From the NCBI RefSeq assembly GCF_000341895.1, contig NC_020409.1, positions 2,460,001 to 2,492,000 on the forward strand: DNA of 32,000 nucleotides, given 5' to 3'. The first letter of the stretch is position 1. The number at the start of each line of letters is the position of its first letter. Below, piece by piece: positions 4,179 to 21,995 of this stretch. The translations under genes and the position numbers were made by a program. The notes beneath the pieces were generated by a model. It searched no databases and had not been told where the DNA came from. It saw only the letters and a program-made list of their open reading frames with translations. This DNA comes from Pseudodesulfovibrio piezophilus C1TLV30. GTDB lineage: Bacteria > Desulfobacterota > Desulfovibrionia > Desulfovibrionales > Desulfovibrionaceae.

Positions 4179-4392
4179 GATAATGTACCTGAGAGTTTCA
4201 AGAGTGCCGACCCTATCAGATGCATATATGGAAATAAAGACAGCACCGATTGAGTCGCCTTTGGTTTTTGAGCGCTTGTGTTGACTTACCCCGGTCATGG
4301 CCGGGCATTCTTGAAGAAACATGGTCTGGATATGATTTTTTTTTATGGAGGAACAGTTTTTTTACACTTTATAATCTTCTTTTTATCCTTTT

Positions 4393-6927: not shown

Positions 6928-7055
6928 ACGGTACTCCTGAAAGGATCGGGTTTTGTGACTCTCTACGCGGTTCGACGCGGGGAGACAAGCTGGGGTGTGG
7001 AACTGTGTCGTATTATAATTAAATCCTTTTTCCTTTTGCAGTACAAGTGCTGATA

Positions 7056-10000
7056 ATGGGAGACAAAGCCAGAGGGGTATACAGGGTGAGCAGTTCACAG
7101 GTGCTGGTTATAGACGATAACCCGACATTCAGGGCATTGGTCCAGGTTCACCTGGCCAAGAAGGGGTATGATGTTGTCGAGGCAGACAGCGGACCTGAAG
7201 GAATCGAGCTGTTCATGCACAATCTGCCGGATGTGGTGTTGGTGGATTTGCGTATGCCTGAGATGGACGGACATGAGGTCCTTGTCGATCTGGCTGGGCG
7301 TTCAGCGGAGATACCCCTGATCGTGATAACCGGAGACAGTCAAATAGAGGATGCGATCAAGGCCTTGCGAAACGGGGCTTGGGATTTTGTCACCAAGGGA
7401 GAGGACTTCCTGTCCGAATTGGACAGTGCTCTGACCAAAGGGCTTGAACGGTCCGAGTCAGTCGCTCGGGAGCGGAAGCGCCTTGATCGGGAAATCGCCG
7501 AAAGACGTAAGGCAGAAGCTGCCTTGAAGGGGCAGTTGGAGTTTATTCAGACTGTTATCGATGCGGTTCCGAATCAGATTTTTTATAAGGGACGTGATGG
7601 GGTCTATCTCGGATGCAACAAGGCTTTCGAGGATTTGGTGGGATTGTCGGCCGGAGAGATAATAGGCAAACGGGTTCAGGATATTGCCCCTCCTGGTGAA
7701 CGGGATATGTATGTTCGCAAGGATGAGGAACTCTATTTCGGAACCAAGAATCAGGAATTTGAACAGCGTACCCGATTTGGTGGCGTGGTTCGGGATATTT
7801 TGGTGCGCAAGGCCCTGTTCCGGGATCTGGAAGGACAGCCCAACGGCATTGTCGGTGTCTTGAGTGATATTACCCGTCAGAAGGAGAGTCAGCAGGAATT
7901 GCGGGCAAGCAAGGAACGGTTCCGTTCCCTTCTCGAATCTTCCCCCCTCCCCATCATCATCGCCGATATCGAGGACGGTTCATGCGTCTATGTCAATCAC
8001 CGGGGAGCAGAATATTTCGGAGTGGACCCGACAGAAGCTGTCGGTATGTCCACCATGACGTTTTATCCTGATCATGCGCTGTGGGAGAGGCTGAAGGCCG
8101 GTGTGCTTCAAAACGGTATTTTGTCCGATGAAGAGGTCGAGGTGCGCCGGTTTGACGGAACACATCTCTGGACGCTGGCATCGGCATCATCCATGGAATT
8201 GGATGGCAACCGTGTGATGAGCATTTCCTTTTCCGATCTGACAGAGCGCAAAGATTTGGAAGAAGCGATGGAGAAATTCAAATTCATAGCCAATGCCTCC
8301 CATGACATGATGACTCTAAGTAACAGGGAATTTCTCTATGAGGCGGCGAACCAGGCATATCTGGATCAACATGGGAAGAGTGAAGAGGCCATTCTCGGCC
8401 ATTCCATGACCGATGTTTGGGGAGAGGAGTCCTTCACCAAAGGGATTCAACCGTACTTTACCCAGTGCCTATCCGGCACGGCTGTCAAATATGAAGCGCG
8501 CTTTTCTTTTTCCGGGAAATCTCCCCGTGATTATGAAGTCAGCATGTACCCGTATTTCGGTTCTGATGGTCAAGTTTCTCATGTTGCCACGGTCTCCAAG
8601 GATATTACTGAAGCGCTGGAGGCCAAAGCGGAGATACTGGAAAGCCGGGAACATTTCAGAACCATCTTCGAAAGCTCCTTGGACCCCATCGTTCTTTTTG
8701 ACAGCCGATTGCACGTCTTTGGCATGAATACATCGGCCATCGCCAAGTTCGGCTTCAATCAACAGGCGGTCATGGGACATGACATGAGGAAATTTTTTGT
8801 CTCCACCCCGGATTTTGTTCTTTTCAGAAAAACCGTTATGCCGATTTTGGAAAGTCAGGGAGCCTGGATGGGAGATTGGACATTCGCCAATAGCGCGAAG
8901 ATGGCAATACCGACCGAAACTACCATCTCGGCTATTCCACCCCGTGCAGATGGAGAAGAAAGGGGGTATGTCGCTATTGTGCGGGATATTAGCCCGAGGA
9001 TTCGCGCAGAGAATGAGCGCAGGGAAACCGAGGAACGGTACAGGGCCGTGTTTGAGTCTTCTGGCGCAGCGACGATTCTTGTCGATGAAGAGGGGATTGT
9101 TACCAAGGCCAATCAACGTTTTCTCGACCTTTTTGAAGCCCCGGCCAGTGATATTGAAGGGCGAATTCATTGGAACGAGTTTGTTGCGGATGAAGACAAG
9201 AAATTCATGGAGCAGCGAAAAGAGACATTGGTCCGTGCACCAGGGCATATCTCCCGGTATGAATTTCGATTCATGTCGTTAAGCGGGGAGTTGCGGCATG
9301 TCTTTCTGGAAGCCAGCGTCCTTCCGGGAACTGACCAATCCATCGTGTCCATTACGGATATCACGGATCGAAAACGTGATGAGAATCGGCTGCGTGAAGC
9401 TTTGGATGAAATGGAGGCCATTCAGCAGAATACTATCGTGGGAATCGGGTTGTTCCTTGATGACAAGATTGTGCGCATCAACAAGCGCGGGGCAGAAATT
9501 TTCGGTTATGAGCCGAAAGATATCCTTGGCCGGTCTCCCTCTGCCTTTTTCCTTTCCGAGCGGAGCTACATGAGTTTTCGCAGGCGTTGTGTCTATAACC
9601 TTATCGTTCATGGTGCCTTTCAGTCGGAGCGGTCCTTTCGTCGGGTTGATGCCACCTGGATATGGGTACACCTTTATGCCCAACCAGTGGATAGGACGGA
9701 TTTGAGAAAAGGTGTCATCTGGACCATCCTTGATATCTCGGAGCGTCGGCATAATGAAATAGTGGCCAATATGCTCTATCAGATTTCCAATGCCGTCAGT
9801 TCTACCTCAGACCTTCATGAATTTTATGAACGAATTCACGCGATCCTCAGTCGAACCATCAATGCGACCAATTTTTTTATTGCCCTTTTGGACAAAGATC
9901 AGCAGATGCTGGAATTTTCTTACTTCGAGGATGAGAAAGATGACCTCAAAGGACATGTTCTCGACCTCCGCCAGCATGGGAAAAAAAGCCTTTCTGCCGA

Positions 10001-11513
10001 GGTTATTCGTACCGGGATGCCCCATTTGGTAACAACCGGGAAAGTTCAGGCGAAGAGTGTTTATATCCCGGATAATTCGGCTGCATATGGTTTGGTTATA
10101 CGAAATCGGCAGGATATTCTTGATGCAAATGGGGTCGAGAACAAAGACATGATCGGTACGTGCTCCAGAGTCTGGCTCGGGGTTCCCCTGAAGATCAAGG
10201 GTGAAGTCGTGGGGGTGATGGCTGTTCAGTCCTATGACGACCCGGATCAATTCTCCTCCAAGGACGCGGCCATGATTATTTCGGTTTCAGAGCAGATAGC
10301 CTTGGCCATAGAGCGTAAGGGAAATGAGCGGGATCTTCTGAAGGCAAAGGAACTTGCCGAGGCGGCCAGTCAGTCGAAAAGTGAATTTCTTGCCAATATG
10401 AGCCATGAGGTGCGGACACCGTTGAATGGTGTTTTGGGTATGTTGCAACTCGCTCAGACAACTGACCTGACGGAAGAACAGCGGGATTATGTTGACACGG
10501 CCCTCAGTTCAGGGCGGAGCCTGCTTTCTATTATCAATGATATTCTGGATTTTTCAAAAATAGAGGCGGGTAAACTTGAAGTTGTGACCGAGCCATTTTC
10601 CTTTTCCCAGCTGGTGCAGGATGTTCTGATGACATTCAGAGGACAGGCCAGAAACAAGGGGATTGATCTGGTTCTCGACCTGCCTGATGAAATCCCCGAA
10701 CCTCTGGTAGGTGGCAAGGGCAGGTTGCGGCAGATCCTTTTCAATCTGGTTGGGAATGGCGTGAAATTTACCACTGACGGGCATGTCGGCATCTTTGCAC
10801 AGATCCTGCGGCAGAAAAGGGACGCGGGGACATTGTTGTTGCTCATCTGTGTCGAGGATACGGGTATCGGCATCCCTGACGACAAGATTGAAGATATCTT
10901 TGAGCCATTCACTCAGGTGGACGGATCATATGTCAGGCAACATCAGGGAACAGGATTGGGACTTGGTATCGTCAAACGATTGGTGGATCTTTTAAACGGC
11001 ACCTTGACCATAGATACGGAAGAGGGGCGTGGCACGGCCTTGTATTTGACCATGGAATTCGGGATCGAGTCCATGTCTTTGGCCGAGTCCCTTGGGAATT
11101 TCCCCGATAGAAGTTCGGGCAAGCGGTTCCTGGTTGTGGAAGATAATCGCGTGAATCGCATTCTTGCTGCGCGAATGCTCGCCAAATTGGGGCATGATTC
11201 CGACGTTGCCTGTGATGGATGGGAAGCATTGGAAAAATTGAAAAATGAGGATTTTGACGCCGTATTCATGGATATTCAAATGCCTGGTATGGATGGTGTC
11301 GCAACGACAAGCAGAATCCGGGCGGCCAAGCCCGGTTCAGGAATTAATCCCGAGATTCCCATTGTTGCCATGACTGCTCACGCAATGCTTGGGGATAGGG
11401 AAGTGTTCATTGATAGTGGTATGGATGAGTATATTGCCAAGCCCGTGGAACTGGATGAGATAAGTTCAACCATCGCTCGCCTGTTCACCAGGAAGGGGAA
11501 GTCAATTCAATAA
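7056..11513 (+). CDS. hybrid sensor histidine kinase/response regulator: N-terminal REC, coiled coil, about 6 PAS, GAF, HisKA, HATPase_c, C-terminal REC (no Hpt)
   Basis: The ORF opens at GTG 7047 and the first ATG is at 7056. Supporting motifs are an N-terminal receiver ([10 protein letters not shown]...[12 protein letters not shown]), the H-box [19 protein letters not shown], the G-box [18 protein letters not shown] and a second receiver ([10 protein letters not shown]...[12 protein letters not shown]...KP). A GAF-like segment lies before the H-box. Confidence 0.93.
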
Positions 11514-11669: not shown

Positions 11670-12659
11670 GTGAAGGAGATGGATACAAATACTCGAGCCG
11701 CCCGGCCCGTATCCTATTTTCCCGTCTCTCCGGTCATGTTGTTCCCGGAGGCTCTAGGGGACTTTGCAGTCTACCTCTGGCAAGGAGGGGACTTTGTCCT
11801 TTACACCCAATCGGGTCAGCAGTTCACTCTCCGTCATCGCCAGATACTCCACCAGAATGATGTCAAGGAAATCTACATTCAAAGCTCGGAAAAACCTGAG
11901 TATGAACGGTATATAGAGCAGAATCTGGGGAAGATTCTACTTGATGAAACACTTCCCATCGAAGTTCGATCAAAAGTTTTTTATGAAGCATCCGCTGTCG
12001 TCATGCAGGATGTTTTTGACCGCAAGCTTCCGAGCGCTCTGCGGGCGAGGCATTTCGACCGGATTACGGATATAGTCAAGAACTCCATCTCGTTTTTGGC
12101 TTCAGACAACTCCCTTTCAGCAATCGCTCCTTTTATTTCACATGATTACAAGACATATACGCACTGCATGCATGTCTTCATCTATTCGGTTGCCGTTTTT
12201 CAGAGTTATGACATGACTGACAGTGAAGTGTTTGAATGTGGTCTTGGCGCACTGCTTCATGATGTCGGCAAGGCCAAGATTCCCCGGCGTATTCTCAACA
12301 AGCGAGGCTCTCTGACCCAGGCCGAACGTGAGATCGTCAAGGAACACCCGATTCATGGGGTCTCCATGTGTGCCCATCTGCCCATGACTCAGAACACGAT
12401 CAACTGTATTCTTTTCCATCATGAGAAACTCGATGGTACAGGATATCCCGCAGGGCTGAAAAGCGATAATATTCCCATGCCGGTACGGATAATTTCCTTG
12501 GCCGATGTCTATGATGCCCTGACCACGGAACGCCCCTATGCCGAAGGCATGGAACCTTATGAAGCCTTGACGCTGATGAGGCATGACATGCGGGATGCCT
12601 TGGATATGAACGTCTTCAAGCAATTCGTGGCTGTTTTAAGCGGTGCGGATCTTCTCTGA
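11670..12659 (+). CDS. HD-GYP domain cyclic-di-GMP phosphodiesterase with intact motifs
   Basis: The motifs THCMHV...LLHDVGKAKIP...EHPIHG...FHHEKLDGTGYPAGL...LADVYDALTTERPY are all present. The start is uncertain: GTG 11670 or ATG 11679. Confidence 0.88.
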   Translation: MKEMDTNTRAARPVSYFPVSPVMLFPEALGDFAVYLWQGGDFVLYTQSGQQFTLRHRQILHQNDVKEIYIQSSEKPEYERYIEQNLGKILLDETLPIEVRSKVFYEASAVVMQDVFDRKLPSALRARHFDRITDIVKNSISFLASDNSLSAIAPFISHDYKTYTHCMHVFIYSVAVFQSYDMTDSEVFECGLGALLHDVGKAKIPRRILNKRGSLTQAEREIVKEHPIHGVSMCAHLPMTQNTINCILFHHEKLDGTGYPAGLKSDNIPMPVRIISLADVYDALTTERPYAEGMEPYEALTLMRHDMRDALDMNVFKQFVAVLSGADLL

Positions 12660-12895: not shown

Positions 12896-13924
12896 TTACT
12901 CAGCAGCTTGGCGGGCGGCTTTTATCCAACCTTCCCAGGTTGCCTTGTTCTTGGCGATCCATTCGTCTGCGTGGCGGGCGATGTCCTTGTCGGATTTTTC
13001 ACCCTGATTCATCTTGGTGTTCTGTTCGCTGATATCGACCAGCGGCAGGGTAAAGAGCTCGAGGAATTTCGCAGCAGCGGGGTTCTTGGCGAGGAATTTC
13101 TTGTTGGCCACGACACGAATATCGGAGACGACAAAGCCTGCCTTGAGCGGATTGGACACGGCACCGACAACATCGGAAGCTGTCATGCGGTCCTTGGCTC
13201 CGGCCTGTGCTTCAGTCGGGTTGATCTCAGGGACATTGATCCACATGACGTCTTTGCCGGGCTTGAATTTGAAGATAGTCCAGTTTGGGGTCCAGGTATA
13301 AAAGAAGACGGGCTTGCCGGATTTGTAGTTACCCAGGGCAGAAGCCATTCCTGCTTCGTAGGCGGCCTTGACCGGGTTGATGTGGTCTTTCAGGTCATAG
13401 ACCTTCATATGGTGGGAAATGACCTTTTCGCATCCCCATCCTGGAGGGCAGGCAGTCAGATCAGCTTTGCCGTCGCCGTTGGTATCAAATGCTTTTTGGA
13501 CCTCAGGGCGCTTGAAGTCATCAAGGGATTTGATGTTGTATTTTTCCACTTCGCGTTTGGAAACAAGATATCCCTGAAGGCCACCGGCCTTGGCGACGTA
13601 CCCGATTTTCTGTGCGTATTTATCAAAGTTCTTTGGCAACTGGGCATCGTGCATGGGGAACCAGCCGTTCGCCCAGTAGTCGAGGTCGCCCATGGTTACG
13701 GATTTGTAGAAGATGGGGTTGGCGAGGTCTTTGACCTTGGCAACTTTGTATCCCAGTTCTTCCATTCCCTTACGAATGAGGACTTCCTGAAAGAAGCCAG
13801 TGTTCCAGGTTGCACGGGCCGGGCGCAGGGTGACACCTTCTCCCGGTGTCATGTTCATTGCCATTGCAGTGGTCGCGAGCATGAGGATGCAGAGTGCCGC
13901 GAGGGTGGTTTTCATCAGTTTCAT
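12896..13924 (-). CDS. proX: glycine betaine/proline betaine ABC transporter substrate-binding protein
   Basis: The protein begins with the signal peptide MKLMKTTLAALCILMLATTAMA and resembles ProX along its length (DLDYWANGWFPMH, GYLVSK, FFYTWTPNW). AAGGAGG lies upstream of the start. Confidence 0.92.
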   Translation of the reverse strand: MKLMKTTLAALCILMLATTAMAMNMTPGEGVTLRPARATWNTGFFQEVLIRKGMEELGYKVAKVKDLANPIFYKSVTMGDLDYWANGWFPMHDAQLPKNFDKYAQKIGYVAKAGGLQGYLVSKREVEKYNIKSLDDFKRPEVQKAFDTNGDGKADLTACPPGWGCEKVISHHMKVYDLKDHINPVKAAYEAGMASALGNYKSGKPVFFYTWTPNWTIFKFKPGKDVMWINVPEINPTEAQAGAKDRMTASDVVGAVSNPLKAGFVVSDIRVVANKKFLAKNPAAAKFLELFTLPLVDISEQNTKMNQGEKSDKDIARHADEWIAKNKATWEGWIKAARQAAE

Positions 13925-13945
13925 GGAACCTCCTTAGATTCTTAT

Positions 13946-14776
13946 TTACTGTTTTTTAGCCATGGATTGGGTGATGCGGTCGAGAACAATGGCCATGAGC
14001 ACAATGCCGAGACCGCCAACGACGGCGCGACCGATATCAAGGGTGTTCAGACCGTAGATGACGGGTGATCCGAGACCGCCTGCACCGATGAGGGCGGCGA
14101 TAACGACCATGGAAAGAGCCATCATGATGGTCTGGTTCAGCCCGGCCAGGATAGTGGGCAGGGCCAGGGGAATCTGGACTTTGACCAGAACCTGCCAGCG
14201 GGTCGCTCCAAAGGCCTGTGCAGCTTCGATGAGTTCGGGATGGACTCCCCGAATGCCAAGGCTGGTCAATCGGATGATCGGTGGCAGGGCAAAGATGATC
14301 GTTGCCAGGACACCCGCGACGTTACCGACGGAGAAAAGCATGACAATGGGCACCAGGTAAACGAAAGCCGGGGTCGTCTGCATGGCGTCCATGACAGGGC
14401 GTAGTCCCGTCTGAAAGGTGTCGCTCCGGCCGGCCATGATGCCGAGCGGGACACCGAAAAGAGTACAGATGATTACGGATGAGAGGACCATCGCCAGGGT
14501 GATCATGGTTTCTTCCCACAGGCCAAGACAGCCGATGAGGACCATGGAGAGAATGGAAAACAGGGCCAGTCGTTTGCCGGAATACTTCCATGCGGCAAAG
14601 CCGATGACGGCGATGACGATGACAGGATGCAGGGCAGTGAGGCCATGCTCGAAACCGTTGAGAAGTTGTTCAACGGGCCATTTGAGAGTCTGGAAGAATT
14701 CCCGGTAGTTGTCCACCAGCCATTCCACGAAGACCGACACCCATTGATCCATGGGTATGATTGCATCTTCAAACAT
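13946..14776 (-). CDS. proW: glycine betaine/proline ABC transporter permease
   Basis: This is a multi-TM protein with the EAA-type loop IEAAQAFGATRWQVLVKVQIPLALPTI. Its start overlaps the proV stop (TAATG). Confidence 0.93.
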   Translation of the reverse strand: MFEDAIIPMDQWVSVFVEWLVDNYREFFQTLKWPVEQLLNGFEHGLTALHPVIVIAVIGFAAWKYSGKRLALFSILSMVLIGCLGLWEETMITLAMVLSSVIICTLFGVPLGIMAGRSDTFQTGLRPVMDAMQTTPAFVYLVPIVMLFSVGNVAGVLATIIFALPPIIRLTSLGIRGVHPELIEAAQAFGATRWQVLVKVQIPLALPTILAGLNQTIMMALSMVVIAALIGAGGLGSPVIYGLNTLDIGRAVVGGLGIVLMAIVLDRITQSMAKKQ

Positions 14777-15996
14777 TATTCATTCACTCCGGTTTCAAGA
14801 TTGACTTCCGTTTTGTGGAGTATTCTGAGGAAGCGGTTTTTGGAGACCACTCCTTTATAAACATCATTTTCATCGACCACCGGGACGGGCCAGGACGCCT
14901 CGGCTACTTTGGGGAGAATGTCCTGCATGGAATCTTCCATCCGTACCGCAGTTCCTTCCGGAAGAAATGCCTGGCTGATGGGAGAGTTGGGGATCCCGGC
15001 TTCAAGGGCATTTCTGATACCTTCTGAAGAGATGACGCCGAGGAAGCGGTGGCGGGCGTCGAGGACATATCCATGTTCACGCTCGCTGCCACTGAGAATT
15101 TCGTGCGCGGTGCGCAGGCTTCCCTGTTTGGTGACGATGATTGTCGGGTGGGTATCGCGTGCAATATCCGCCGCGCTGATGACATTGGTCGGGTCCACGC
15201 CACGGAAAAAGGCTCGCACGTAGTCGTTGGCCGGATTTTGGAGGATTTCATCCGGGGTGCCGACCTGGACAACATTGCCGCCTTCCATGATGGCGATACG
15301 ATCGCCGATGCGCAGGGCCTCATCAAGGTCATGTGATATAAAGACGATGGTGCGTTGCTGTTCTTCCTGGAGTTTCAGCAGTTCATCCTGCATTTCAGTG
15401 CGAATAAGTGGATCGAGGGCTGAAAAGGCTTCATCCATAAGCAGGATGTCCGGGTCCACGGCGAGGCCGCGCGCCAGGCCGACACGCTGTTGCATGCCGC
15501 CACTGAGTTGGTCAGGGTACTGGTTTTCCCAACCAGTCAGGCCAACCTGTTCCAGGGCTTCCAGAGCGCGTTCATGGCGCTGGGCCTTTTCTATACCTGC
15601 CAATTCCAGGCCGAAAGCGGCATTGTCCAAAACGGTCTGGTGCGGCATGAGGGCGAAGGACTGGAAGACCATGCTCATGTTATGCAAGCGGAATTTGACC
15701 AGCTCATCGTTGTTCATGGCCGTGACGTCCTGACCATCGACTATGACACGTCCGGCAGTCGGCTCAATGAGTCGATTGAGCATCCGCACAATGGTCGATT
15801 TTCCTGAGCCGGAAAGGCCCATGATGACAAAAATCTCGCCCGCTTCAATGGAGAAGCTGGCATCACAGACGCCGACGGTCATGCCGGTTTCCTCCAAAAC
15901 GGATTTCTTGTCATGGCCGTTTTGAAGCATTTTGAGTCCCTTGGCAGGCTTGCTGCCAAAGATCTTGTAAAGGTTTTCTACACGAATCTTTTCCAT
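14776..15996 (-). CDS. proV: glycine betaine/proline ABC transporter ATP-binding protein with a C-terminal CBS pair
   Basis: Supporting motifs are Walker A GLSGSGKST, signature LSGGMQQRVGLARGL and Walker B ILLMDEAFSALD. The CBS-like C-terminal half is typical of ProV/OpuAA. Confidence 0.94.
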   Translation of the reverse strand: MEKIRVENLYKIFGSKPAKGLKMLQNGHDKKSVLEETGMTVGVCDASFSIEAGEIFVIMGLSGSGKSTIVRMLNRLIEPTAGRVIVDGQDVTAMNNDELVKFRLHNMSMVFQSFALMPHQTVLDNAAFGLELAGIEKAQRHERALEALEQVGLTGWENQYPDQLSGGMQQRVGLARGLAVDPDILLMDEAFSALDPLIRTEMQDELLKLQEEQQRTIVFISHDLDEALRIGDRIAIMEGGNVVQVGTPDEILQNPANDYVRAFFRGVDPTNVISAADIARDTHPTIIVTKQGSLRTAHEILSGSEREHGYVLDARHRFLGVISSEGIRNALEAGIPNSPISQAFLPEGTAVRMEDSMQDILPKVAEASWPVPVVDENDVYKGVVSKNRFLRILHKTEVNLETGVNE

Positions 15997-16661: not shown

Positions 16662-17726
16662 TTGAGAGGGAGTATTGCATTGAAAACCTGTGAAGACGTT
16701 CGGAATATGAAAGGCCTCCTCGATCGTTTTGGTATTGGCAATGACCCGGATTGGATATCCATAGTCCTCTTCGTGCGCAATCTGTTGAGTCGGCTTTCTA
16801 TCTATACAGATGACAAGAAAGCGGAAATTCAACGGGAAATTTTTGGAGAACTGGCCAAGAAAGATTTTTCGGAGGAGCATTTCGAAGTCGTGCTCGCCAT
16901 GCTTGATATGTACGTCATGCAGACGATCGGTGCTCAGGATCTAGAGGATGCCCTGACCAGGGAAAAACGATCCGCCTCTCAATTGTTGAATGAAATGAAT
17001 GAGGTCATCGATACCATGAATGGGTCCAGCGAGCGACAGAATCGCAAGCTCGACGCTTTTAAAGAGCAGACTGTGGGGGTTATCGAGTCCGGTGAAGATC
17101 AGTCCGTCATCGTTGCCAAGGTTCGACAGATGTTTCAGGAATTGATCGTTGAATTCAAAGAAGAAGCCAAGCTGCTGCAATCGCGGGCTTTAATGCTTGA
17201 ACGGTCGGCAAATTTTGATCCCCTTTTGACAGAGCTGCATAATCGGCGCGCTTTTGATGCCTTTTTGAATGATGCCATCCTGGCTCAACGCAAAAAGCCC
17301 GGCTCCCTCTGCCTCCTGATGATTGATGTCGATCTCTTTAAAAATGTCAATGACACGTATGGGCATCAGGCAGGTGATGATGTTTTGCGGGCCCTGGCCC
17401 GAATTCTAACGGCTCATGTCATCCAATACAACGGATTCCCGGCGCGATACGGAGGTGAAGAATTGGTGGTGGTCATTCAGGATATGCCCCTGGATATCGC
17501 CGTTCTCAAGGCTGAAGCATTGCGAACCAATGTCGAGCAGTATGGGTTTCGCATCCGTAATGAGGGGCGGCTGACTGAAGCCGAAGTCTCATGTACTGTT
17601 TCCATTGGGGTTGCCCAGTGGCAGAAAGGGTGGGATGCAGGGCAACTTGTTCGTGCGGCGGACACCGCACTCTATCGAGCCAAGGATTCCGGGCGTAATC
17701 AGGTCTGCACTGCGAGGCCTTCATAA
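16662..17726 (+). CDS. cytoplasmic diguanylate cyclase (GGDEF domain, active site GGEEL) with a helical/coiled-coil N-terminal region of about 170 aa
   Basis: Supporting motifs are RRAFDAFL...LLMIDVDLFKNVNDTYGHQAGDDVL...ARYGGEELVVV (GGEEL at nt 17451-17465)...RAADTALYRAKDSGRNQV. There is no TM segment, and I see no RxxD I-site just upstream of GGEEL. The start is either TTG 16662 or ATG 16707. Confidence 0.88.
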   Translation: MRGSIALKTCEDVRNMKGLLDRFGIGNDPDWISIVLFVRNLLSRLSIYTDDKKAEIQREIFGELAKKDFSEEHFEVVLAMLDMYVMQTIGAQDLEDALTREKRSASQLLNEMNEVIDTMNGSSERQNRKLDAFKEQTVGVIESGEDQSVIVAKVRQMFQELIVEFKEEAKLLQSRALMLERSANFDPLLTELHNRRAFDAFLNDAILAQRKKPGSLCLLMIDVDLFKNVNDTYGHQAGDDVLRALARILTAHVIQYNGFPARYGGEELVVVIQDMPLDIAVLKAEALRTNVEQYGFRIRNEGRLTEAEVSCTVSIGVAQWQKGWDAGQLVRAADTALYRAKDSGRNQVCTARPS

Positions 17727-17772: not shown

Positions 17773-18906
17773 ATGCAGCTGAAAAGTGTCCAATTCCTGT
17801 TTCTCTTGATTGTCCTATTCGTGATTCTCCTGACTCCGTCTCAAGGAGAGGCAGGGGAGGTCATGGTTCTCCATTCCACAGACAGAAGTGATGGCCGTAC
17901 TGCATCGTTGATGCAGGGCATCCGTGACGCCCTTGGCAGCGACTTCAGTGTTTCAGAAGTGTTCCTCGGTACAGCCACTGACGACGAAGATCACTACGAC
18001 GATCAGTTCCAAAAACTTTTTTCTTCTCAGCCGGATGATTCTGTCGTTGCCGTGGTGACTGATGGGTCGGAGGCCTTTTCATTCATGCGAAAATTTCGCG
18101 AAGATCTTTATGTCGGTACCCCCGTGATCTATTGTGGGCAAGCAAGGCCGAATCCGGAATTTTTGCGTCAATGCGGCAATTGCACCGGGGTGCCCCTTCA
18201 TGATGGAGTCGCTGCGACGGTTGATCTGATCTTTTCTCTTGTCCCGACGACAGAGACAGTGGTGGGAATCCTTGACGCCACTCCGGGAAGCCGGGAACTT
18301 CGGTCGCAGGTAGAGCAGGCCATGGAGCCGTATTTCAGCCACGCCCAGCTCATTTTTCCGGGATATGAACCTGGTGATGACGATGGACTTGATATGGCAC
18401 AGCTTGCCAGGGTTGCTGCCAGTGTGCCGCCATCAGCAGCAGTCCTGTTTCTGGATTTTTCCGTGGACAATTCGGGGGAGCCGGTTCTTCCGGCTGATGC
18501 TGTTCGTGAGGTGACCCGGCTCAGTGACGCACCTGTGTATGTCCTGAACGATCAATGGCTGGGAGCAGGAGTGCTTGGCGGGGTGTTTGTGACTGGCCAG
18601 ACGCAGGGCCTCCGTGTTGGACACTTGGTCCAACGGGTGCTTTCCGGGGAACGGGCAGAGGAGATGCTGCCAGAAAGTCCTGAATTGGATGTGGTGTTGG
18701 ACCAGACTGTCATGGCCCGCTTCGGTCTGGGCAGAGATGCCTTACCTCCGGGGGCAAAGGGGATCAACCCAGTCCCCAGCCCGGATATAGTGGAAGGCGT
18801 CTCTCCAGTGTGGTACGGGTTTGCCGTGGCAGGTCTCATCCTTGTTCTGGTTGTTGTTTGGGTCAGGAGCCGAGCAACTCAAAAAGATAGGCGGTCTGGA
18901 GACTGA
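17773..18906 (+). CDS. stand-alone periplasmic ABC-substrate-binding-like sensor domain with a signal peptide and a single C-terminal TM anchor; no output domain
   Basis: The track ORF spans 17605..18906. I place the start at ATG 17773 (MQLKSVQFLFLLIVLFVILLTPSQGEA). The protein is paralogous to the periplasmic domain of the 597-4178 kinase: VTDGSEAFSFMRKFREDLYVGTPVIYCG matches VTDNNALEFMRRFHDELFPNVPVVFCG, and APVYVLNDQWLGAGVLGGVFVTGQTQG matches VPVYGLLDFDLGHGIVGGMLTSGYSQG. It ends with WYGFAVAGLILVLVVVWV followed by a 13-aa tail. Confidence 0.8.
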   Translation: MQLKSVQFLFLLIVLFVILLTPSQGEAGEVMVLHSTDRSDGRTASLMQGIRDALGSDFSVSEVFLGTATDDEDHYDDQFQKLFSSQPDDSVVAVVTDGSEAFSFMRKFREDLYVGTPVIYCGQARPNPEFLRQCGNCTGVPLHDGVAATVDLIFSLVPTTETVVGILDATPGSRELRSQVEQAMEPYFSHAQLIFPGYEPGDDDGLDMAQLARVAASVPPSAAVLFLDFSVDNSGEPVLPADAVREVTRLSDAPVYVLNDQWLGAGVLGGVFVTGQTQGLRVGHLVQRVLSGERAEEMLPESPELDVVLDQTVMARFGLGRDALPPGAKGINPVPSPDIVEGVSPVWYGFAVAGLILVLVVVWVRSRATQKDRRSGD

Positions 18907-19078
18907 CCATTATCAGGACGGCACTGGTGGCGATGACGACCATCCGGCGGGTTTCCTGGCGGACTTTGAAGCAGATGTCGGCAAGTTGTTCGGAGATATA
19001 TTCCGTTGTGTATTTTTTGTGTTGCAGCCAGATCATGAGTGTCTCCTCGATGTATGGTGTGTGTTCGATTTTTCTCAT
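18863..19078 (-). CDS. possible 71-aa tail-anchored small protein (weak call)
   Basis: From ATG 19078 the product reads MRKIEHTPYIEETLMIWLQHKKYTTEYISEQLADICFKVRQETRRMVVIATSAVLIMVSLQTAYLFELLGS, with a hydrophobic C-terminal segment. There is no convincing SD, and the 3' end overlaps the convergent gene by 44 nt. Confidence 0.2.
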   Translation of the reverse strand: MRKIEHTPYIEETLMIWLQHKKYTTEYISEQLADICFKVRQETRRMVVIATSAVLIMVSLQTAYLFELLGS

Positions 19079-19210: not shown

Positions 19211-20233
19211 TCAGGAAGGAATCGTTTGGAGAAATCGGACAAGGGTCCGGCAGATGACCGGGTCGTACAGTTCTTCCCGATTGAGTAATTCGGCGGCGGC
19301 TTCGGCGGTCGAAAAGCCTCTTCGCTGGGGAGTGTCGGTTATCATGGCGCTGTATGTATCAGTGACGGCCACGATACGACCGAGTTGGCTGATGGCGTTC
19401 CCTTTCAGCTTATTCGGATACCCACTTCCGTTGAGGCGTTCGTGGTGCTGGAGCGCCGGTTCCCGTATTTCCGGTTGAATCAGACTCAATCGTGTCAGGA
19501 TGGTGTCGCTTTTGCCCGGATGTCCCCGCATGGTTCTTTGCTCCATGGGTGTCAATTTCTGTTTTCTACCGAGCATCAGATGCGATATCTTGGTCATTCC
19601 TATATCATAGAGAAAAAAACCGAGGGCGACGGCATTCAGTGTTTTTGAGTGCAGATCTTCCCTATGCAGTTTGGTATAGACCGCCAGTGCCATGAGCGAG
19701 GCATTAACCCTGCGGCGTGGTGGACTGAGGTCAGCATGAATGTGCTGGACTATCTTCATGATATGGCTTGGCGAACGGGAAAGATAGGAGCAGAGCGTTT
19801 CGAGCGTTTGAGTGAGTGCCTTCAGTTCTCTTGGCATGGGGTGGTCGAAGAGATCATCCTGCCTGATCTTCAACTCTCCGATGAGAATGGAGGACTTTTC
19901 TTCCCAAGCCAGGTTCGGGTCCTTGAGCGCCATTTTGATATTGGTAGCGACCGTGGCCGAGTACTGAGATATCTGTTTACGGGAAAAAAAGAGGTCGCCG
20001 TCTTCACTGAGTTCACGAAATCGTTCGCGCTGTGCCCCTGAGACATCTTCCCCAGCCGTATAAATACGTGAGAGAAGCCCTGCCGATTCCCTGAATTCGT
20101 ACAGGTCCACCGGGTACCTGACGGGTGGAAAGCATTCCAGAATATGCGGATCAATCTGATTATAGTCTTCCGTACTCAGATTATCCGGGTCATTATCCCT
20201 ACTGGATTTTGTATTATTCTCTACATCGGCCAT
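19211..20233 (-). CDS. HD-GYP family protein with a degenerate metal-binding motif (YD in place of HD) and a retained HHE..GYP
   Basis: The sequence reads RRRVNASLMALAVY...ALGFFLYDIGMTKISHLMLGRKQKLTPMEQRTMRGHPGKS...QHHERLNGSGYPNKL...VTDTYSAMITD. The YD codons are at nt 19604-19609 (TATGAT on the minus strand). Confidence 0.85.
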   Translation of the reverse strand: MADVENNTKSSRDNDPDNLSTEDYNQIDPHILECFPPVRYPVDLYEFRESAGLLSRIYTAGEDVSGAQRERFRELSEDGDLFFSRKQISQYSATVATNIKMALKDPNLAWEEKSSILIGELKIRQDDLFDHPMPRELKALTQTLETLCSYLSRSPSHIMKIVQHIHADLSPPRRRVNASLMALAVYTKLHREDLHSKTLNAVALGFFLYDIGMTKISHLMLGRKQKLTPMEQRTMRGHPGKSDTILTRLSLIQPEIREPALQHHERLNGSGYPNKLKGNAISQLGRIVAVTDTYSAMITDTPQRRGFSTAEAAAELLNREELYDPVICRTLVRFLQTIPS

Positions 20234-20307
20234 GCTTTACAAGCCCCGGTTATCAAGAAAGAGTTTTTCCTATAGCCTGGATACGATTTCTCGTCGAGTC
20301 CCAAATA

Positions 20308-20532
20308 TCAACTGAAGGCAATCCAGGAAACCGCAAGGGTCCACAAGAATCCGCAAAGCAGGGCCGTGCCCGGTATCATCCACCATTTGAGCAGGATGGG
20401 GTGGCCCCGTAGCGTGAATGTGCCGCAACAGGAAAAAAGGCTGAGAATCATTTGGATGAGCAAGCCGGAAGCGGCAAGGGCAGGCAGGGCGAAAATCCAG
20501 AAAACAGGGTCAGCGATCCAGGTTTCGCTCAC
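20308..20532 (-). CDS. 74-aa small membrane protein with two predicted TM helices
   Basis: The gene has a GTG start preceded by a strong SD (AAGGAGG, 8-nt spacer). The hydrophobic stretches are PVFWIFALPALAASGLLIQMILSLF and WWMIPGTALLCGFLWTLAVSWIAF. It sits between the DAC-fold gene and the HD-GYP gene on the same strand. Confidence 0.6.
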   Translation of the reverse strand: MSETWIADPVFWIFALPALAASGLLIQMILSLFSCCGTFTLRGHPILLKWWMIPGTALLCGFLWTLAVSWIAFS

Positions 20533-20570
20533 GAATATGACCTCCTTTTTTCACTTATCGGGGCCATGGG

Positions 20571-21995
20571 TCAGGCCATGATCCATTCGGCGAGAAGGGG
20601 AGGTCTGGGGAGGCCGTGGATTTGTTCAAAATGGCACTTTGCCGTCAGTTCCACTCCGTTCTTGATGATGGAGACCGGCCTGTCTGCCGAGACCACAACA
20701 ACAACGATCTCTTCATGCTCTGCTGTGAAACGCAGGGCTGAATTGAATCGCGCGCCACGCGCCCGATTTTCACCGGGGACACTCCGCCCGTCCATCAGAC
20801 ATCCGAAGCCATGCAGTTTCAGATCGCGGCCGATATGGAGTGCACCATCAAGCTTGGCCAGGGAACAGGCAAGTTTGAGTTGACTGCTCTCCTGGAGGTC
20901 AAGATCCTTTTCAAAGTGCTGGCCGGACATGGTCAGCAGATTTTCGCCGGTATCAATGACCAGAGTGCACCCGTGCTTGCGGTCGCGTACCCGGTTGACC
21001 AGGAGGGAAACTATTTTGAGCAGGGTGTGCTGTTCTCCCATCTCCATTTCGGTTTCCAGAAGCTGCTCTTCCAGTTGAACGAGATTTGCCCGTTGGTTTG
21101 ATGAGTGGAATCGACCGTCGAGAAAGCTGCAAATGAGGTTGTCCTTGATCCAGAGAAATCCATGTGTACCGCTGAATTGTGCTGCCAGATAGGAGCCGGG
21201 CATGGGGCCGATGGCAATACCCAGGATGCGTTGGCCGTCCGAGACAAGGACCCGCCCGGATTCTTCAACGGCCTGAAGAAGCTTGCGGACATGCTTGATA
21301 TCGTGCAGGTGCGGTTGTTCCAGGGAAGGAAATCGGCAGATGAATCGGACCCGATCCAGTTGGCTCGGTTCCACCACGACCACTCTCCCTCGCGGCCATT
21401 CTCCTTCTTCCTGCGTGGCGGAGACGCCCAGTATGGCATCAAGAAACGGGTAGACACGGATTCGGGTGTCAAGCCAGCCCTGGCGACTTCGTTCGTCCAC
21501 GATGTAGTCTCTGATAGCGTGGGTTGCGCAGTGCTGGAGTATGAATCCGGCTGTGTCGAGATTCTGCACATCGCGGGTCGCAAAATTCTGGGAGACCAGG
21601 CCTGCCGCATATTCCAGCCAACGCTCTGTCGGTCCCACTGAGCACATATCCGGGTGTTGTTCCGTAAACCATGCCTGATAGTGCATATGTCTGGAACGGG
21701 CGACCAAAGAAATAATACCGGAGAGGCCGAGGTCGTTCTCTTCATCTTCTCTAAGCTGCATTTCCCGTCCGGTGACGGCATCTCCTCGCCATTGGTTGGA
21801 ATAGAGGTAGTAGTCTCTGAGCTTGGGTTCGTGGCCACTCAGAAGATCCTGCGGATCGCAAATGCGGGGAGGGGAACCTGGAGTCTCGGCATAGATAAGC
21901 GCAGCACGGCTGGGATGGGAAAAGTGGGACAGGCCGTCCCGCAGTCCATCCAGGATATGGAATATGCAGATATTTTCAAACGATGCCATACTCAT
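20571..21995 (-). CDS. DisA_N/DAC (diadenylate cyclase) fold protein with an unassigned N-terminal region of about 330 aa; DGA motif present, RHR motif replaced by RFN
   Basis: The track ORF spans 20571..22046. I place the start at ATG 21995 (MSMASFENI...) with a GGGAAGAG purine tract upstream. The C-terminus HGCTLVIDTGENL...AKLDGALHIGRDLKLHGFGCLM...RARGARFNSALRFTAEHEEIVVVVVSADRPVSIIKNG aligns by eye with CdaA (IGALIVIERETGL...LHDGAVI...LGTRHRAAVGISE..D.L.IIVSEETGGVSVAKNG). Confidence 0.75.
   Translation of the reverse strand: MSMASFENICIFHILDGLRDGLSHFSHPSRAALIYAETPGSPPRICDPQDLLSGHEPKLRDYYLYSNQWRGDAVTGREMQLREDEENDLGLSGIISLVARSRHMHYQAWFTEQHPDMCSVGPTERWLEYAAGLVSQNFATRDVQNLDTAGFILQHCATHAIRDYIVDERSRQGWLDTRIRVYPFLDAILGVSATQEEGEWPRGRVVVVEPSQLDRVRFICRFPSLEQPHLHDIKHVRKLLQAVEESGRVLVSDGQRILGIAIGPMPGSYLAAQFSGTHGFLWIKDNLICSFLDGRFHSSNQRANLVQLEEQLLETEMEMGEQHTLLKIVSLLVNRVRDRKHGCTLVIDTGENLLTMSGQHFEKDLDLQESSQLKLACSLAKLDGALHIGRDLKLHGFGCLMDGRSVPGENRARGARFNSALRFTAEHEEIVVVVVSADRPVSIIKNGVELTAKCHFEQIHGLPRPPLLAEWIMA

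What the first reader, a model, noticed from the sequence alone, without database searches (positions are those of the whole stretch)
19211..21995. Co-directional module of a DAC-fold protein, a 74-aa two-TM protein and an HD-GYP protein, in which both nucleotide-signalling domains carry substituted catalytic residues
Seen in sequence:
- Three minus-strand genes are separated by only 38 and 74 nt.
- The middle small gene has a near-perfect SD (AAGGAGG, 8-nt spacer).
- The first product ends in a diadenylate-cyclase (DisA_N) fold. The last is an HD-GYP-family protein.

Inference: pairing a cyclase-fold protein with a phosphodiesterase-fold protein around a tiny membrane protein looks like a self-contained cyclic-nucleotide module. 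However, the cyclase RHR motif reads RFN and the phosphodiesterase HD reads YD (see the two separate findings). The pair may therefore act as nucleotide receptors or scaffolds, or use a different nucleotide, rather than as a conventional make-and-break enzyme pair. I do not know of a described system with this composition.
Basis: partly seen in the sequence, partly recalled or inferred. Interest (0 to 1): 0.7.

Follow-up and report, generated by a model that had tools for sequence, protein, structure and literature searches.

The report
Diadenylate cyclase operon with membrane partners
This is a chromosomal operon of a sulfate-reducing bacterium that encodes a known class of cyclic-di-AMP synthase, whose unusual motif is normal for that class, followed by small membrane proteins that always accompany it in this genus and by a degenerate HD-GYP protein that is only an optional neighbour.

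Summary
Three minus-strand genes sit 38 and 74 nt apart, the middle one has an AAGGAGG Shine-Dalgarno, and the motifs read R-F-N (for RHR) and Y-D (for HD).

- **The cyclase.** It has the described DACND-DACNH-DAC architecture and occurs in at least 575 Desulfobacterota species. R-[Y/F/H]-N is the class-wide signature. It is shared with a genuine DS-2C protein, a family reported to make c-di-AMP in vitro, so it is not evidence of a dead enzyme. The DGA Asp, the first Arg, the Ser and the acidic metal ligand are all kept.
- **The 74-aa two-TM gene.** It is real (dN/dS about 0.32). It follows the cyclase in 20 of 20 Pseudodesulfovibrio/Salidesulfovibrio contexts and nowhere outside that clade.
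- **The HD-GYP protein.** It is a clade-restricted, degenerate protein with a Bd1817-like fold. It is adjacent in only 8 of 15 species-level loci. In others it is replaced by an MCP-like gene or by nothing, and it lies elsewhere in at least 3 contexts.
- **A missed gene.** A fourth co-directional gene (57 aa, one TM helix) lies at 18863-19036.

Most likely this is a housekeeping c-di-AMP cyclase with lineage-specific membrane partners and a facultative degenerate HD-GYP neighbour. Interest is modest.

The parts
20571..21995 (-). DACND-DACNH-DAC protein (474 aa), soluble diadenylate-cyclase-class protein
   Evidence: ORF. Pfam hits to DACND, DACNH and DAC. 100% identical cluster P0001, with Pseudodesulfovibrio orthologs at 74-89%. 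AF2 model pLDDT 86.5. The top 50 Foldseek hits are all CdaA/DacA/CdaM/DisA.
21483..21983 (-). DACND putative sensor domain (residues 5-171)
   Evidence: PF21749, 239 bits.
21129..21452 (-). DACNH domain (residues 182-289)
   Evidence: PF21750, 110.9 bits.
20655..20996 (-). DAC (DisA_N) catalytic-fold domain (residues 334-447)
   Evidence: PF02457, 54.3 bits against a cut-off of 27. Foldseek matches to CdaA at probability 1.00.
20841..20849 (-). DGA motif (D383-G384-A385), retained
   Evidence: Sequence. D383 and G384 are invariant and A385 is >=90% conserved in 56 family members. The motif aligns to the CdaA D171-G172-A173 motif.
20742..20750 (-). R416-F417-N418, at the position of the canonical RHR motif
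   Evidence: Sequence. Alignment to CdaA R203-H204-R205. R and N are invariant and the middle residue is F or Y across the family. The pattern is class-wide.
20541..20547 (-). Shine-Dalgarno AAGGAGG of the 74-aa gene, 8-nt spacer to GTG
   Evidence: Read directly from the sequence.
20308..20532 (-). 74-aa two-TM hairpin protein. The termini are acidic or neutral. The inter-helix loop is basic (CC-x-TF-x-LRG[RH]-x3-LKWW).
   Evidence: ORF. Hydropathy gives two segments, about 10-37 and 50-74. It lies directly downstream of the cyclase gene in 15/15 clade loci and in L083, L084, L087 and L088. dN/dS is about 0.32 over 16 orthologs. Only 28 clusters exist in the 5.8-billion-protein database.
19211..20233 (-). 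Degenerate HD-GYP protein (340 aa): DUF3391-like N-terminal domain, helical linker and a YD-GYP domain
   Evidence: Pfam HD_5. 100% identical to the P. piezophilus protein P0121. AF2 model pLDDT 86.5. The best full-length fold match is Bd1817 (3TM8/3TMB).
19604..19609 (-). Y209-D210 in place of the HD dyad. It is followed by I-G-M213, where canonical domains have I-G-K.
   Evidence: Sequence. Alignments to 5Z7C, 4MCW and 4R8Z. Y is nearly invariant (one F), and D and M are invariant in 20 orthologs.
18863..19036 (-). Fourth co-directional small gene: 57 aa, cytoplasmic N-terminus (W-x2-H-x-KYT-x-EY ... RETRRM) and one C-terminal TM helix. It has its own GAGGAG Shine-Dalgarno.
   Evidence: Sequence. 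Alignment with the called genes of L087 and L083. tblastn finds it in 12 related loci, including loci that lack the HD-GYP gene.
18892..18909 (-). Terminator-like hairpin plus T-run at the 3' end of the 57-aa gene; possible end of the transcript
   Evidence: Consensus scan. The number of such sites in the region is not above the shuffled expectation, so this is weak evidence.

Best explanation
**What it is.** The cluster is a chromosomal, vertically inherited operon of Pseudodesulfovibrio piezophilus.

**The cyclase.** The first gene encodes a soluble protein of the DACND-DACNH-DAC class, which is widespread in Desulfobacterota. I infer that it is a working cyclic-dinucleotide synthase, most probably for c-di-AMP. 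Two N-terminal domains regulate it. The R-[F/Y]-N motif is the normal form of the RHR motif in this class.

**The small membrane proteins.** In the Pseudodesulfovibrio/Salidesulfovibrio lineage the cyclase gene is followed by a 74-aa two-helix membrane hairpin. In most Pseudodesulfovibrio a 57-aa single-helix membrane protein lies further downstream. I infer that these small proteins tether the cyclase to the membrane or modulate it through their conserved basic cytoplasmic segments. That would couple nucleotide synthesis to a membrane or osmotic cue.

**The HD-GYP protein.** Its gene occupies a variable slot between the two small genes. It is a clade-restricted protein with a Bd1817-like fold. 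Its first metal site and its canonical c-di-GMP recognition motifs are remodelled, so it is probably not a conventional phosphodiesterase. It is a facultative regulator or receptor, not a required partner of the cyclase.

**Shown here:** gene structure, domain and fold assignments, motif positions, the class-wide conservation of the motif, and the neighbourhood statistics.

**Inferred:** catalytic activity, co-transcription, a physical interaction with the small proteins, and the role of the HD-GYP protein.
For: **Cyclase class and distribution**
- Pfam architecture.
- At least 575 species genomes encode a relative.
- Identity stays at 52-89% across Desulfobacterota orders, with about 69% mean column identity. 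This indicates strong purifying selection.

**Active-site residues**
- D383/G384 (DGA), R416, S436 and D438 are invariant in 56 sequences.
- They align to CdaA D171/G172, R203, S222 and E224.
- In PanS the Asp and the first Arg are the residues that contact the phosphodiester.

**R-x-N is class-wide and compatible with activity**
- Counts among representatives: RYN 63, RFN 31, RHN 7.
- The Citrobacter DS-2C equivalog (NF053872, 803.8 bits against a cut-off of 630) has RGSRYNSG. It sits next to patatin and CD-NTase genes.
- DS-2C homologs make c-di-AMP in vitro.

**Fold**
- All top Foldseek hits are diadenylate cyclases.

**Small gene**
- Present in 20 of 20 clade contexts, with gaps of -16 to 116 nt.
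- dN/dS about 0.32.
- Strong Shine-Dalgarno.

**57-aa gene**
-.

**HD-GYP is optional**
- Adjacent in 8 of 15 loci.
- Replaced by an MCP-like gene in L007, L008 and L011, or by nothing in L001, L002, L003 and L005.
- Located elsewhere in L082, L089 and L091.

**HD-GYP is degenerate but constrained**
- N177, Y209, D210, M213, H238, QHHER, GxGYP and D292 are conserved.
- KPG and RxY[K/R] are not conserved (one search compared).

**Not a defence island**
- No PADLOC hit.
- G+C is normal.
- The flanks are housekeeping genes.
Against: - No enzymatic data exist for any DACND-class protein.
- I could not see the sequences of the DS-2C proteins that were actually assayed. The argument that R-Y-N is compatible with activity therefore rests on a family equivalog.
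- His of RHR, Thr202 and His170 of CdaA are all replaced (F, A and L). Product or metal preference could therefore differ.
- I could not check whether the genome carries a canonical CdaA or DisA. If it does, this protein's role is less clear.
- The HD-GYP gene stays with the cyclase and the small gene in 12 of 15 distinct contexts examined. This includes one with different flanks on both sides (L088) and holds across two genera. That hints at some functional linkage which my 'facultative' reading may undervalue.
- Nothing shows that the small proteins touch the cyclase.
Confidence: 0.5

Rival explanations
1. The three genes form one self-contained cyclic-nucleotide module. Both the DAC and the HD-GYP proteins are non-catalytic receptors or scaffolds, or they work on a non-canonical nucleotide. 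The 74-aa membrane protein is the output or the anchor.
For: - The genes are tightly spaced and co-directional, with no structured spacer.
- Both signature motifs are altered at the catalytic positions.
- The trio recurs in 12 contexts across two genera. In L088 its flanks differ from the window's on both sides.
- DAC domains can make products other than c-di-AMP, for example cUA.
- The HD-GYP family has lost the c-di-GMP-specific RxY[K/R] and KPG motifs, so its ligand is open.
Against: - The HD-GYP gene is absent from the slot in 7 of 15 species-level loci, after at least three independent events.
- It is relocated in at least 3 contexts.
- R-x-N is class-wide and is shared with a DS-2C equivalog, a family reported to be active.
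- At least 65 cyclase orthologs outside the clade have neither partner.
- HD-GYP domains are not known to act on c-di-AMP.
Confidence: 0.15
2. The DAC domain is catalytically dead. The protein acts as a sensor or receptor for ATP or c-di-AMP, or as a regulator of another cyclase, throughout the DACND class.
For: - RHR mutants of canonical DACs lose activity (established knowledge for DisA and CdaA; not re-checked here).
- Three of the canonical contact residues differ: T202 to A, H204 to F, R205 to N. CdaA H170 is L here.
- The upstream DACNH domain is itself described as a degenerate DAC-like fold.
Against: - D of DGA, the first Arg, the Ser and the acidic metal ligand are invariant.
- The same motif set occurs in DS-2C, whose homologs are active.
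- The altered motif is extremely well conserved (GARxNSALRF). That fits a functional site rather than decay.
Confidence: 0.15
3. An anti-phage system of the PanDA/Panoptoo or DS-2 type. A DAC makes a signal that controls a small membrane-disrupting effector.
For: - There is a weak NCBIfam hit to the DS-2 anti-phage protein: 65 bits over the DACNH-DAC region.
- A two-TM protein is encoded next to a DAC, as in PanS/PanE.
Against: - The score is far below the 630-bit cut-off.
- There is no PADLOC hit.
- The small protein is 74 aa. That leaves no room for the beta-barrel nucleotide receptor that defines 2TM-beta effectors.
- There is no CD-NTase, patatin or mobile-element context.
- G+C is normal.
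- The gene is a syntenic core gene across a genus and is found in at least 575 species.
Confidence: 0.04

Closest known systems
DACND-DACNH-DAC class of diadenylate cyclases (Pfam PF21749, PF21750, PF02457). The N-terminal domains were defined in Galperin 2023, J Bacteriol 205:e00023-23. I know that paper from memory and from citations; its text was not available.
   Same: The three-domain architecture is the same, with all three Pfam models well above threshold. The conserved GAR[FY]NSALRF motif is the same as in the rest of the class.
   Different: Nothing differs in the protein itself. The pairing with a 74-aa two-TM gene and a 57-aa TM gene, restricted to one lineage, is not something I could find described.
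DS-2C / CdaG (DACNG-DACNH-DAC) cyclases of DS-2 CBASS-like anti-phage operons
   Same: It shares the DACNH-DAC core. It shares the R-[Y/F]-N-S, DG[AT] and VS-x-D-R/G motifs. DS-2C homologs are shown to make c-di-AMP.
   Different: The N-terminal domain is DACND, not DACNG. The NF053872 score is 65 against a cut-off of 630. There is no CD-NTase or patatin neighbour. The context is the chromosomal core, not a defence island.
PanDA / Panoptoo (minimal DAC PanS plus 2TM-beta effector PanE)
   Same: A DAC-fold gene is followed by a gene for a two-TM protein.
   Different: PanS is about 150 aa with no sensor domains, and PanE carries a nucleotide-binding beta-barrel. Here the cyclase is 474 aa with two extra domains. 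The membrane protein is a bare 74-aa hairpin.
Bd1817 family (DUF3391-HD-GYP), Bdellovibrio bacteriovorus, PDB 3TM8
   Same: The full-length fold matches: 318-322 aligned columns, TM about 0.6, E = 3e-10. The architecture is an N-terminal beta-rich domain, a long helix and an HD-GYP domain.
   Different: Pfam DUF3391 is not detected by sequence. The HD dyad reads YD, the first His is missing, and K of HDxGK is M.
Degenerate, non-catalytic HD-GYP proteins: DvhD of Desulfovibrio vulgaris (PDB 9RBZ, c-di-GMP-bound), HnoD, ECA3548, PA2572 (YN-GYP)
   Same: The HD dyad is lost while the GYP region is retained. DvhD is a precedent in the same bacterial family for an HD-GYP domain used as a receptor.
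   Different: Here HHE is intact, but the c-di-GMP-specific RxY[K/R] and KPG motifs are not conserved. A c-di-GMP receptor role therefore cannot be assumed. The domain context also differs, with no Cache, PAS or REC domain.
cdaA-cdaR-glmM operon of Firmicutes (own knowledge)
   Same: A diadenylate cyclase is co-encoded with accessory proteins that regulate it at the membrane.
   Different: CdaA is itself membrane-anchored, and CdaR and GlmM are large proteins. Here the cyclase is soluble and the co-encoded proteins are 74-aa and 57-aa membrane peptides. There is no homology between the two sets.

Membership tests
DAC / DisA_N diadenylate cyclase domain (PF02457) | Match to the family HMM above the curated cut-off | tested here: met
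   54.3 bits against a cut-off of 27, residues 334-447.
DAC / DisA_N diadenylate cyclase domain (PF02457) | DAC fold | tested here: met
   AF2 model pLDDT 86.5. The top 50 Foldseek PDB hits are all CdaA/DacA/CdaM/DisA, probability 1.00, target TM about 0.6.
DAC / DisA_N diadenylate cyclase domain (PF02457) | DGA motif | tested here: met
   D383 and G384 are invariant and A385 is >=90% conserved. The motif aligns to CdaA D171-G172-A173.
DAC / DisA_N diadenylate cyclase domain (PF02457) | RHR motif | tested here: not met
   It reads R416-F417-N418, so only the first Arg is kept. The same deviation is found across the DACNH-DAC clade, including DS-2C.
DAC / DisA_N diadenylate cyclase domain (PF02457) | Synthesis of c-di-AMP from ATP | not testable with these tools
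   This needs biochemistry. The only indirect support is the reported activity of DS-2C homologs.
DACND-DACNH-DAC class | DACND and DACNH domains N-terminal to DAC | tested here: met
   PF21749 at 239.2 bits and PF21750 at 110.9 bits.
DS-2C / CdaG anti-phage cyclase (NF053872) | Equivalog HMM score of at least 630 bits | tested here: not met
   65.2 bits, over the DACNH-DAC part only. A true member scores 803.8.
DS-2C / CdaG anti-phage cyclase (NF053872) | Neighbouring CD-NTase and effector genes in a defence-island context | tested here: not met
   The neighbours are DUF429, ChaN-PDZ, Fpg, GGDEF and MurJ. There are no PADLOC hits.
PanDA / Panoptoo | Minimal (about 150 aa) DAC with no regulatory domain | tested here: not met
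   The protein is 474 aa with DACND and DACNH domains.
PanDA / Panoptoo | Partner with two TM helices plus a nucleotide-binding beta-barrel (S-2TM-beta) | tested here: not met
   The partner is 74 aa and consists entirely of two hydrophobic helices and a 13-residue loop. It has no Pfam or NCBIfam hit.
HD-GYP c-di-GMP phosphodiesterase | HD-GYP domain model match, HHE and GYP motifs | tested here: met
   HD_5 at 84.4 bits. QHHER and GxGYP are invariant in 20 orthologs.
HD-GYP c-di-GMP phosphodiesterase | Complete metal-ligand set (first His, and His of the HD dyad) | tested here: not met
   N177-A-S stands where the first His should be, and Y209 replaces His of the HD dyad.
HD-GYP c-di-GMP phosphodiesterase | Substrate-recognition motifs: K of HDxGK, KPG, and RxY[K/R] | tested here: not met
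   M213 is invariant in place of K. KPG reads R-K-Q or variants. The RxY[K/R] position reads T-P-Q-R and varies among orthologs. The motifs are as defined.
HD-GYP c-di-GMP phosphodiesterase | Hydrolysis of c-di-GMP or cGAMP | not testable with these tools
   This needs an enzyme assay.
Bd1817 family (DUF3391-HD-GYP) | N-terminal DUF3391 domain joined by a long helix to HD-GYP | tested here: inconclusive
   The full-length Foldseek match to 3TM8/3TMB (E = 3e-10, about 320 columns) supports it. The Pfam DUF3391 HMM gives no hit.

The most novel reading that the evidence does not exclude
In Pseudodesulfovibrio the cluster works as one unit. Two tiny membrane proteins (74 aa and 57 aa) recruit and gate a soluble DACND-class cyclase. 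The YD-GYP protein, with its rebuilt metal site and base-recognition site, is a dedicated receptor or hydrolase for the cyclase's product. That would make it the first HD-GYP-family protein acting on c-di-AMP or on another DAC product, and a direct link between c-di-AMP and the adjacent c-di-GMP genes.
Probability: 0.1. Interest if true: 0.65.

Novelty: new variant of a known kind. Interest (0 to 1): 0.3.

Why it matters
c-di-AMP signalling is almost unstudied in sulfate reducers, and no DACND-class cyclase has been characterised.

This analysis removes a false lead. The 'broken' RHR motif is the class norm, and a bona fide member of the DS-2C family, which is reported to be active, carries it too. 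That matters for anyone who annotates DAC proteins as inactive from the motif alone.

It also gives testable leads:
- a genus-wide pairing of a soluble cyclase with one or two very small membrane proteins, which are possible membrane or osmotic inputs;
- a compact family of YD-GYP proteins whose ligand is unknown.

None of this is a new kind of system. The three-gene 'module' as proposed is not a conserved unit.

Tried and rejected
- **PDB sequence searches with the cyclase.** The single sequence gave nothing, and the family profile gave only one spurious marginal match (bS21m, E = 0.044). I used a verified CdaA sequence with hhalign, and Foldseek, instead.
- **PADLOC.** No hits for any of the three proteins, so a defence reading was dropped.
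- **Rfam and tRNA scans of the window.** Nothing found, including no c-di-AMP riboswitch.
- **Promoter and terminator scan.** Counts were not above the shuffled expectation. The 74-nt spacer has no significant structure (z = +0.83). The operon structure therefore stays an inference.
- **Conserved neighbours of the cyclase outside the clade.** Clustering all ORFs of 80 loci gave only lineage-level synteny, at most 10 of 65 loci. A scan for small hydrophobic ORFs downstream found only sporadic, unrelated ones: L066 (64 aa) and L018.
- **Literature.** Galperin 2023 is not held. No paper pairs 'CdaD' with c-di-AMP. Nothing useful on c-di-AMP in Desulfovibrio. No supplement was available with the DS-2C sequences. 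I therefore recovered a DS-2C equivalog from a Citrobacter plasmid.
- **The nearby OpuA-type transporter with a CBS ATPase.** I considered it as a linked c-di-AMP target and rejected it as part of the cluster. It is absent from this position in all related loci.

Full report
**1. Observation**

The window carries three minus-strand ORFs:
- 20571-21995 (474 aa from the start that orthologs support),
- 20308-20532 (74 aa, GTG start),
- 19211-20233 (340 aa).

They are separated by exactly 38 and 74 nt. The sequence shows AAGGAGG 8 nt upstream of the GTG of the middle gene.

Pfam gives DACND (5-171), DACNH (182-289) and DAC/DisA_N (334-447) for the first protein. It gives HD_5/HD for the third and nothing for the 74-aa protein.

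The best database matches identify the organism as Pseudodesulfovibrio piezophilus or a near-identical strain. The HD-GYP protein is 100% identical to P0121, and the cyclase is 100% identical to P0001.

**2. Are the substituted positions the catalytic ones?**

For the cyclase I verified an L. monocytogenes CdaA sequence against PDB 6HVL/4RV7. I aligned it to a 56-sequence family profile and in a small multiple alignment.
- D383-G384-A385 falls on the DGA motif.
- G414-A415-R416-F417-N418 falls on G-T202-R203-H204-R205.
- S436 falls on S222 and D438 on E224.

An AlphaFold2 model (pLDDT 86.5) matches only diadenylate cyclases among its top 50 PDB hits.

For the HD-GYP protein I used phmmer alignments to V-cGAP3, PmGH and PA4781.
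- Y209-D210 falls on the HD dyad.
- No histidine stands at the first metal-ligand position (N177-A-S).

**3. What the cyclase substitution means**

It is not a local degeneration.
- In 12 and then 56 family members spanning several Desulfobacterota orders (52-89% identity), R416, N418 and S419 are invariant. The middle residue is F or Y.
- An exhaustive HMMER search listed the 150 best of the 50%-identity representatives, reaching down to about 27% identity. About 100 of them span the motif. At this position they gave RYN 63, RFN 31 and RHN 7. A few further strings from my motif scan (REL, RPE, RPS and similar) are probably off-target.
- Every long representative I checked has the same DACND-DACNH-DAC architecture.

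I then recovered a bona fide DS-2C anti-phage cyclase from a Citrobacter plasmid. It scores 803.8 bits on NF053872 (cut-off 630) and lies next to a patatin gene and a nucleotidyltransferase gene. It reads GIDGT, RGSRYNSG and VVSDDRT, which is the same motif set.

A 2026 preprint reports that three DS-2C homologs synthesise c-di-AMP in vitro. It also reports that in the PanS structure the DGA Asp and the first Arg are the residues that read the phosphodiester (bioRxiv 10.64898/2026.08.10.743927).

R-[Y/F]-N is therefore the normal form of this motif in the DACNH-DAC clade, and it is compatible with activity.

Caveat: I did not see the sequences of the proteins that were assayed, and no DACND-class protein has been tested.

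**4. Is the three-gene arrangement conserved?**

A scan of one genome per species found at least 575 species with a relative of the cyclase. Eighty loci were kept.

tblastn and ORF inspection gave the following.
- The 74-aa gene lies directly downstream, with a gap of -16 to 116 nt, in all 15 loci of the Pseudodesulfovibrio/Salidesulfovibrio clade (cyclase identity 66-83%).
- It is in none of the 65 more distant loci (59% identity or less).
- Four further contexts (L083, L084, L087, L088) also have it.

The HD-GYP ortholog follows in only 8 of the 15 loci.
- In L001, L002, L003 and L005 the slot is empty.
- In L007, L008 and L011 an MCP-like gene of about 860 aa occupies it.
- The small-protein sequences group these loci into at least three separate lineages. 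That implies at least three independent losses or replacements.

Conversely, HD-GYP orthologs that keep the YD signature sit in unrelated places.
- In strain JC047 the gene lies among thiamine and glycosyltransferase genes, while the cyclase and small gene are on another contig.
- In two other contexts it lies next to DUF922 and glutamate synthase genes.

Outside the clade no gene family is a conserved neighbour of the cyclase.

Against a purely accidental adjacency, the trio persists in 12 of 15 distinct HD-GYP contexts and across two genera. In L088 its flanks differ from the window's on both sides.

My reading is that the trio was ancestral in this clade and that the HD-GYP gene is dispensable and mobile within genomes.

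**5. The small proteins**

The 74-aa gene is a real gene.
- Sixteen orthologs align without frame problems.
- They share the conserved core LPALxxSGLLxQMxLSLFSCCxTFxLRGRxxxLKWWMIP.
- dN/dS is about 0.32, although synonymous sites are near saturation.
- Hydropathy gives two helices (about 10-37 and 50-74) around a basic loop (R42, H44, K49). The N-terminus is acidic. By the positive-inside rule, the loop is cytoplasmic.
- Only 28 clusters exist in a 5.8-billion-protein database, all at 58% identity or more.

It lies at 18863-19036 (-).
- It encodes 57 aa and has a GAGGAG Shine-Dalgarno 6 nt before the ATG.
- It has a conserved cytoplasmic N-terminus and one C-terminal helix.
- It is present in 12 related loci, including those without the HD-GYP gene. 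In those loci it directly follows the 74-aa gene.

The backbone of the locus is therefore: cyclase, 74-aa hairpin, a variable slot (HD-GYP, MCP-like gene or nothing), 57-aa protein. Then come a convergent unknown gene, a GGDEF gene and a canonical HD-GYP gene.

**6. The HD-GYP protein**

- Its orthologs are confined to this clade: 56 clusters at 38% identity or more, then a drop to generic HD-GYP hits at 29%.
- It evolves faster than the cyclase: 38-56% against 66-80% identity in the same genomes.
- It is still constrained. N177, D210, M213, H238, QHHER, GxGYP and D292 are invariant. Y209 is nearly so, with one F.
- Its AlphaFold2 model (pLDDT 86.5) matches Bd1817 over the full length. That indicates a DUF3391-like domain, a helix and an HD-GYP domain.
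- It also matches the c-di-GMP-bound degenerate HD-GYP domain of D. vulgaris DvhD.

I compared it with the determinants listed by Galperin & Chou. It lacks both histidines of the first metal site, the Lys of HDxGK, the KPG motif and a conserved RxY[K/R] motif.

It is therefore unlikely to be a conventional c-di-GMP phosphodiesterase. A c-di-GMP receptor role, as in DvhD, HnoD or PA2572, cannot simply be assumed either. HD-GYP domains are not known to hydrolyse c-di-AMP.

**7. Mechanism proposed**

Shown:
- a strongly conserved, chromosomal, non-defence cyclase gene of a described class;
- the core catalytic residues are retained;
- the gene is always followed, in this lineage, by a tiny membrane hairpin gene and usually by a second small membrane protein gene.

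Inferred:
- The cyclase makes c-di-AMP, or possibly another cyclic dinucleotide.
- The genes are co-transcribed. The gaps are short, each small gene has a strong Shine-Dalgarno, and the spacer has no structure.
- The small proteins tether the soluble enzyme to the membrane or modulate it.
- The YD-GYP protein is an optional regulator or receptor.

I put about 0.5 on this overall picture.

The rivals are:
- a catalytically dead DAC class (0.15);
- an anti-phage DAC-effector pair (0.04).

**8. Comparison with known systems, and novelty**

- The cyclase is a member of the DACND-DACNH-DAC class. All architectural tests were met. The RHR test was not met, but in the way typical of that class.
- It is not a DS-2C/CdaG protein and not a PanDA/Panoptoo system. 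The defining features were tested and not met.
- The HD-GYP protein has a Bd1817-like fold and fails the metal-ligand and substrate-motif tests for an active HD-GYP phosphodiesterase.
- The lineage-specific pairing of a soluble DAC with 74-aa and 57-aa membrane proteins, and the YD/IGM variant of HD-GYP, appear to be undescribed.
- Both are variants within known kinds, not a new kind of system.

Interest is modest (0.3). The main value is in correcting the 'degenerate cyclase' inference and in offering small, testable leads for c-di-AMP biology in sulfate reducers.

Noticed in passing
window 18863-19036 (-): An unannotated 57-aa gene on the same strand, 174 nt after the HD-GYP stop codon. It has a GAGGAG Shine-Dalgarno and one C-terminal TM helix. 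Its 3' end overlaps the convergent gene by 44 nt. It is conserved in 12 related loci, including those that lack the HD-GYP gene.
   Followed up: yes
window 12896-15996 (-): An OpuA-type glycine-betaine ABC transporter: an OpuAC binding protein, a permease and an ATPase with a CBS domain. CBS ATPases of such transporters are c-di-AMP targets in Firmicutes (own knowledge). In related genomes the GGDEF gene and the canonical HD-GYP gene are adjacent, so this transporter is an insertion specific to this genome's version of the neighbourhood.
   Followed up: partly
window 16662-17726 (+) and 11670-12659 (+): A GGDEF protein and a canonical HD-GYP protein (HD intact). Both are syntenic with the cyclase locus across the genus, so the YD-GYP gene sits in a region rich in c-di-GMP genes. 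The region also has two large PAS/GAF hybrid histidine kinases, at 597-4322 (-) and 7047-11513 (+).
   Followed up: partly
window about 17830-18906 (+): A convergent gene for a protein of about 360 aa. It has an N-terminal signal or TM segment and a C-terminal TM helix, and no Pfam match. It is a conserved neighbour in 14-15 of the 15 clade loci, and its 5' part overlaps the end of the GGDEF ORF.
   Followed up: no
L066 7457-7651 (+); L018: In a distant Desulfovibrionales MAG, an unrelated 64-aa two-TM ORF starts 16 nt after the cyclase stop codon. L018 has a 125-aa two-TM ORF at 71 nt. Small membrane partners of this cyclase class may have arisen more than once, or these ORFs may be chance.
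   Followed up: no
L081 4278-5792 (Priestia megaterium plasmid NZ_CP065336): A 504-aa plasmid-borne DACNH-DAC protein with GARFNSA. It lies next to a cytosine methyltransferase, an NgoFVII-type restriction enzyme and Vsr. It scores only 193 bits on the DS-2C model, so it may be another defence-associated DAC subfamily.
   Followed up: no
P0255, P0256, P0264 (orthologs of the 74-aa protein): NCBI records name these 74-81-aa proteins 'competence protein ComEC'. That name looks like an annotation artefact for a bare two-helix peptide.
   Followed up: no
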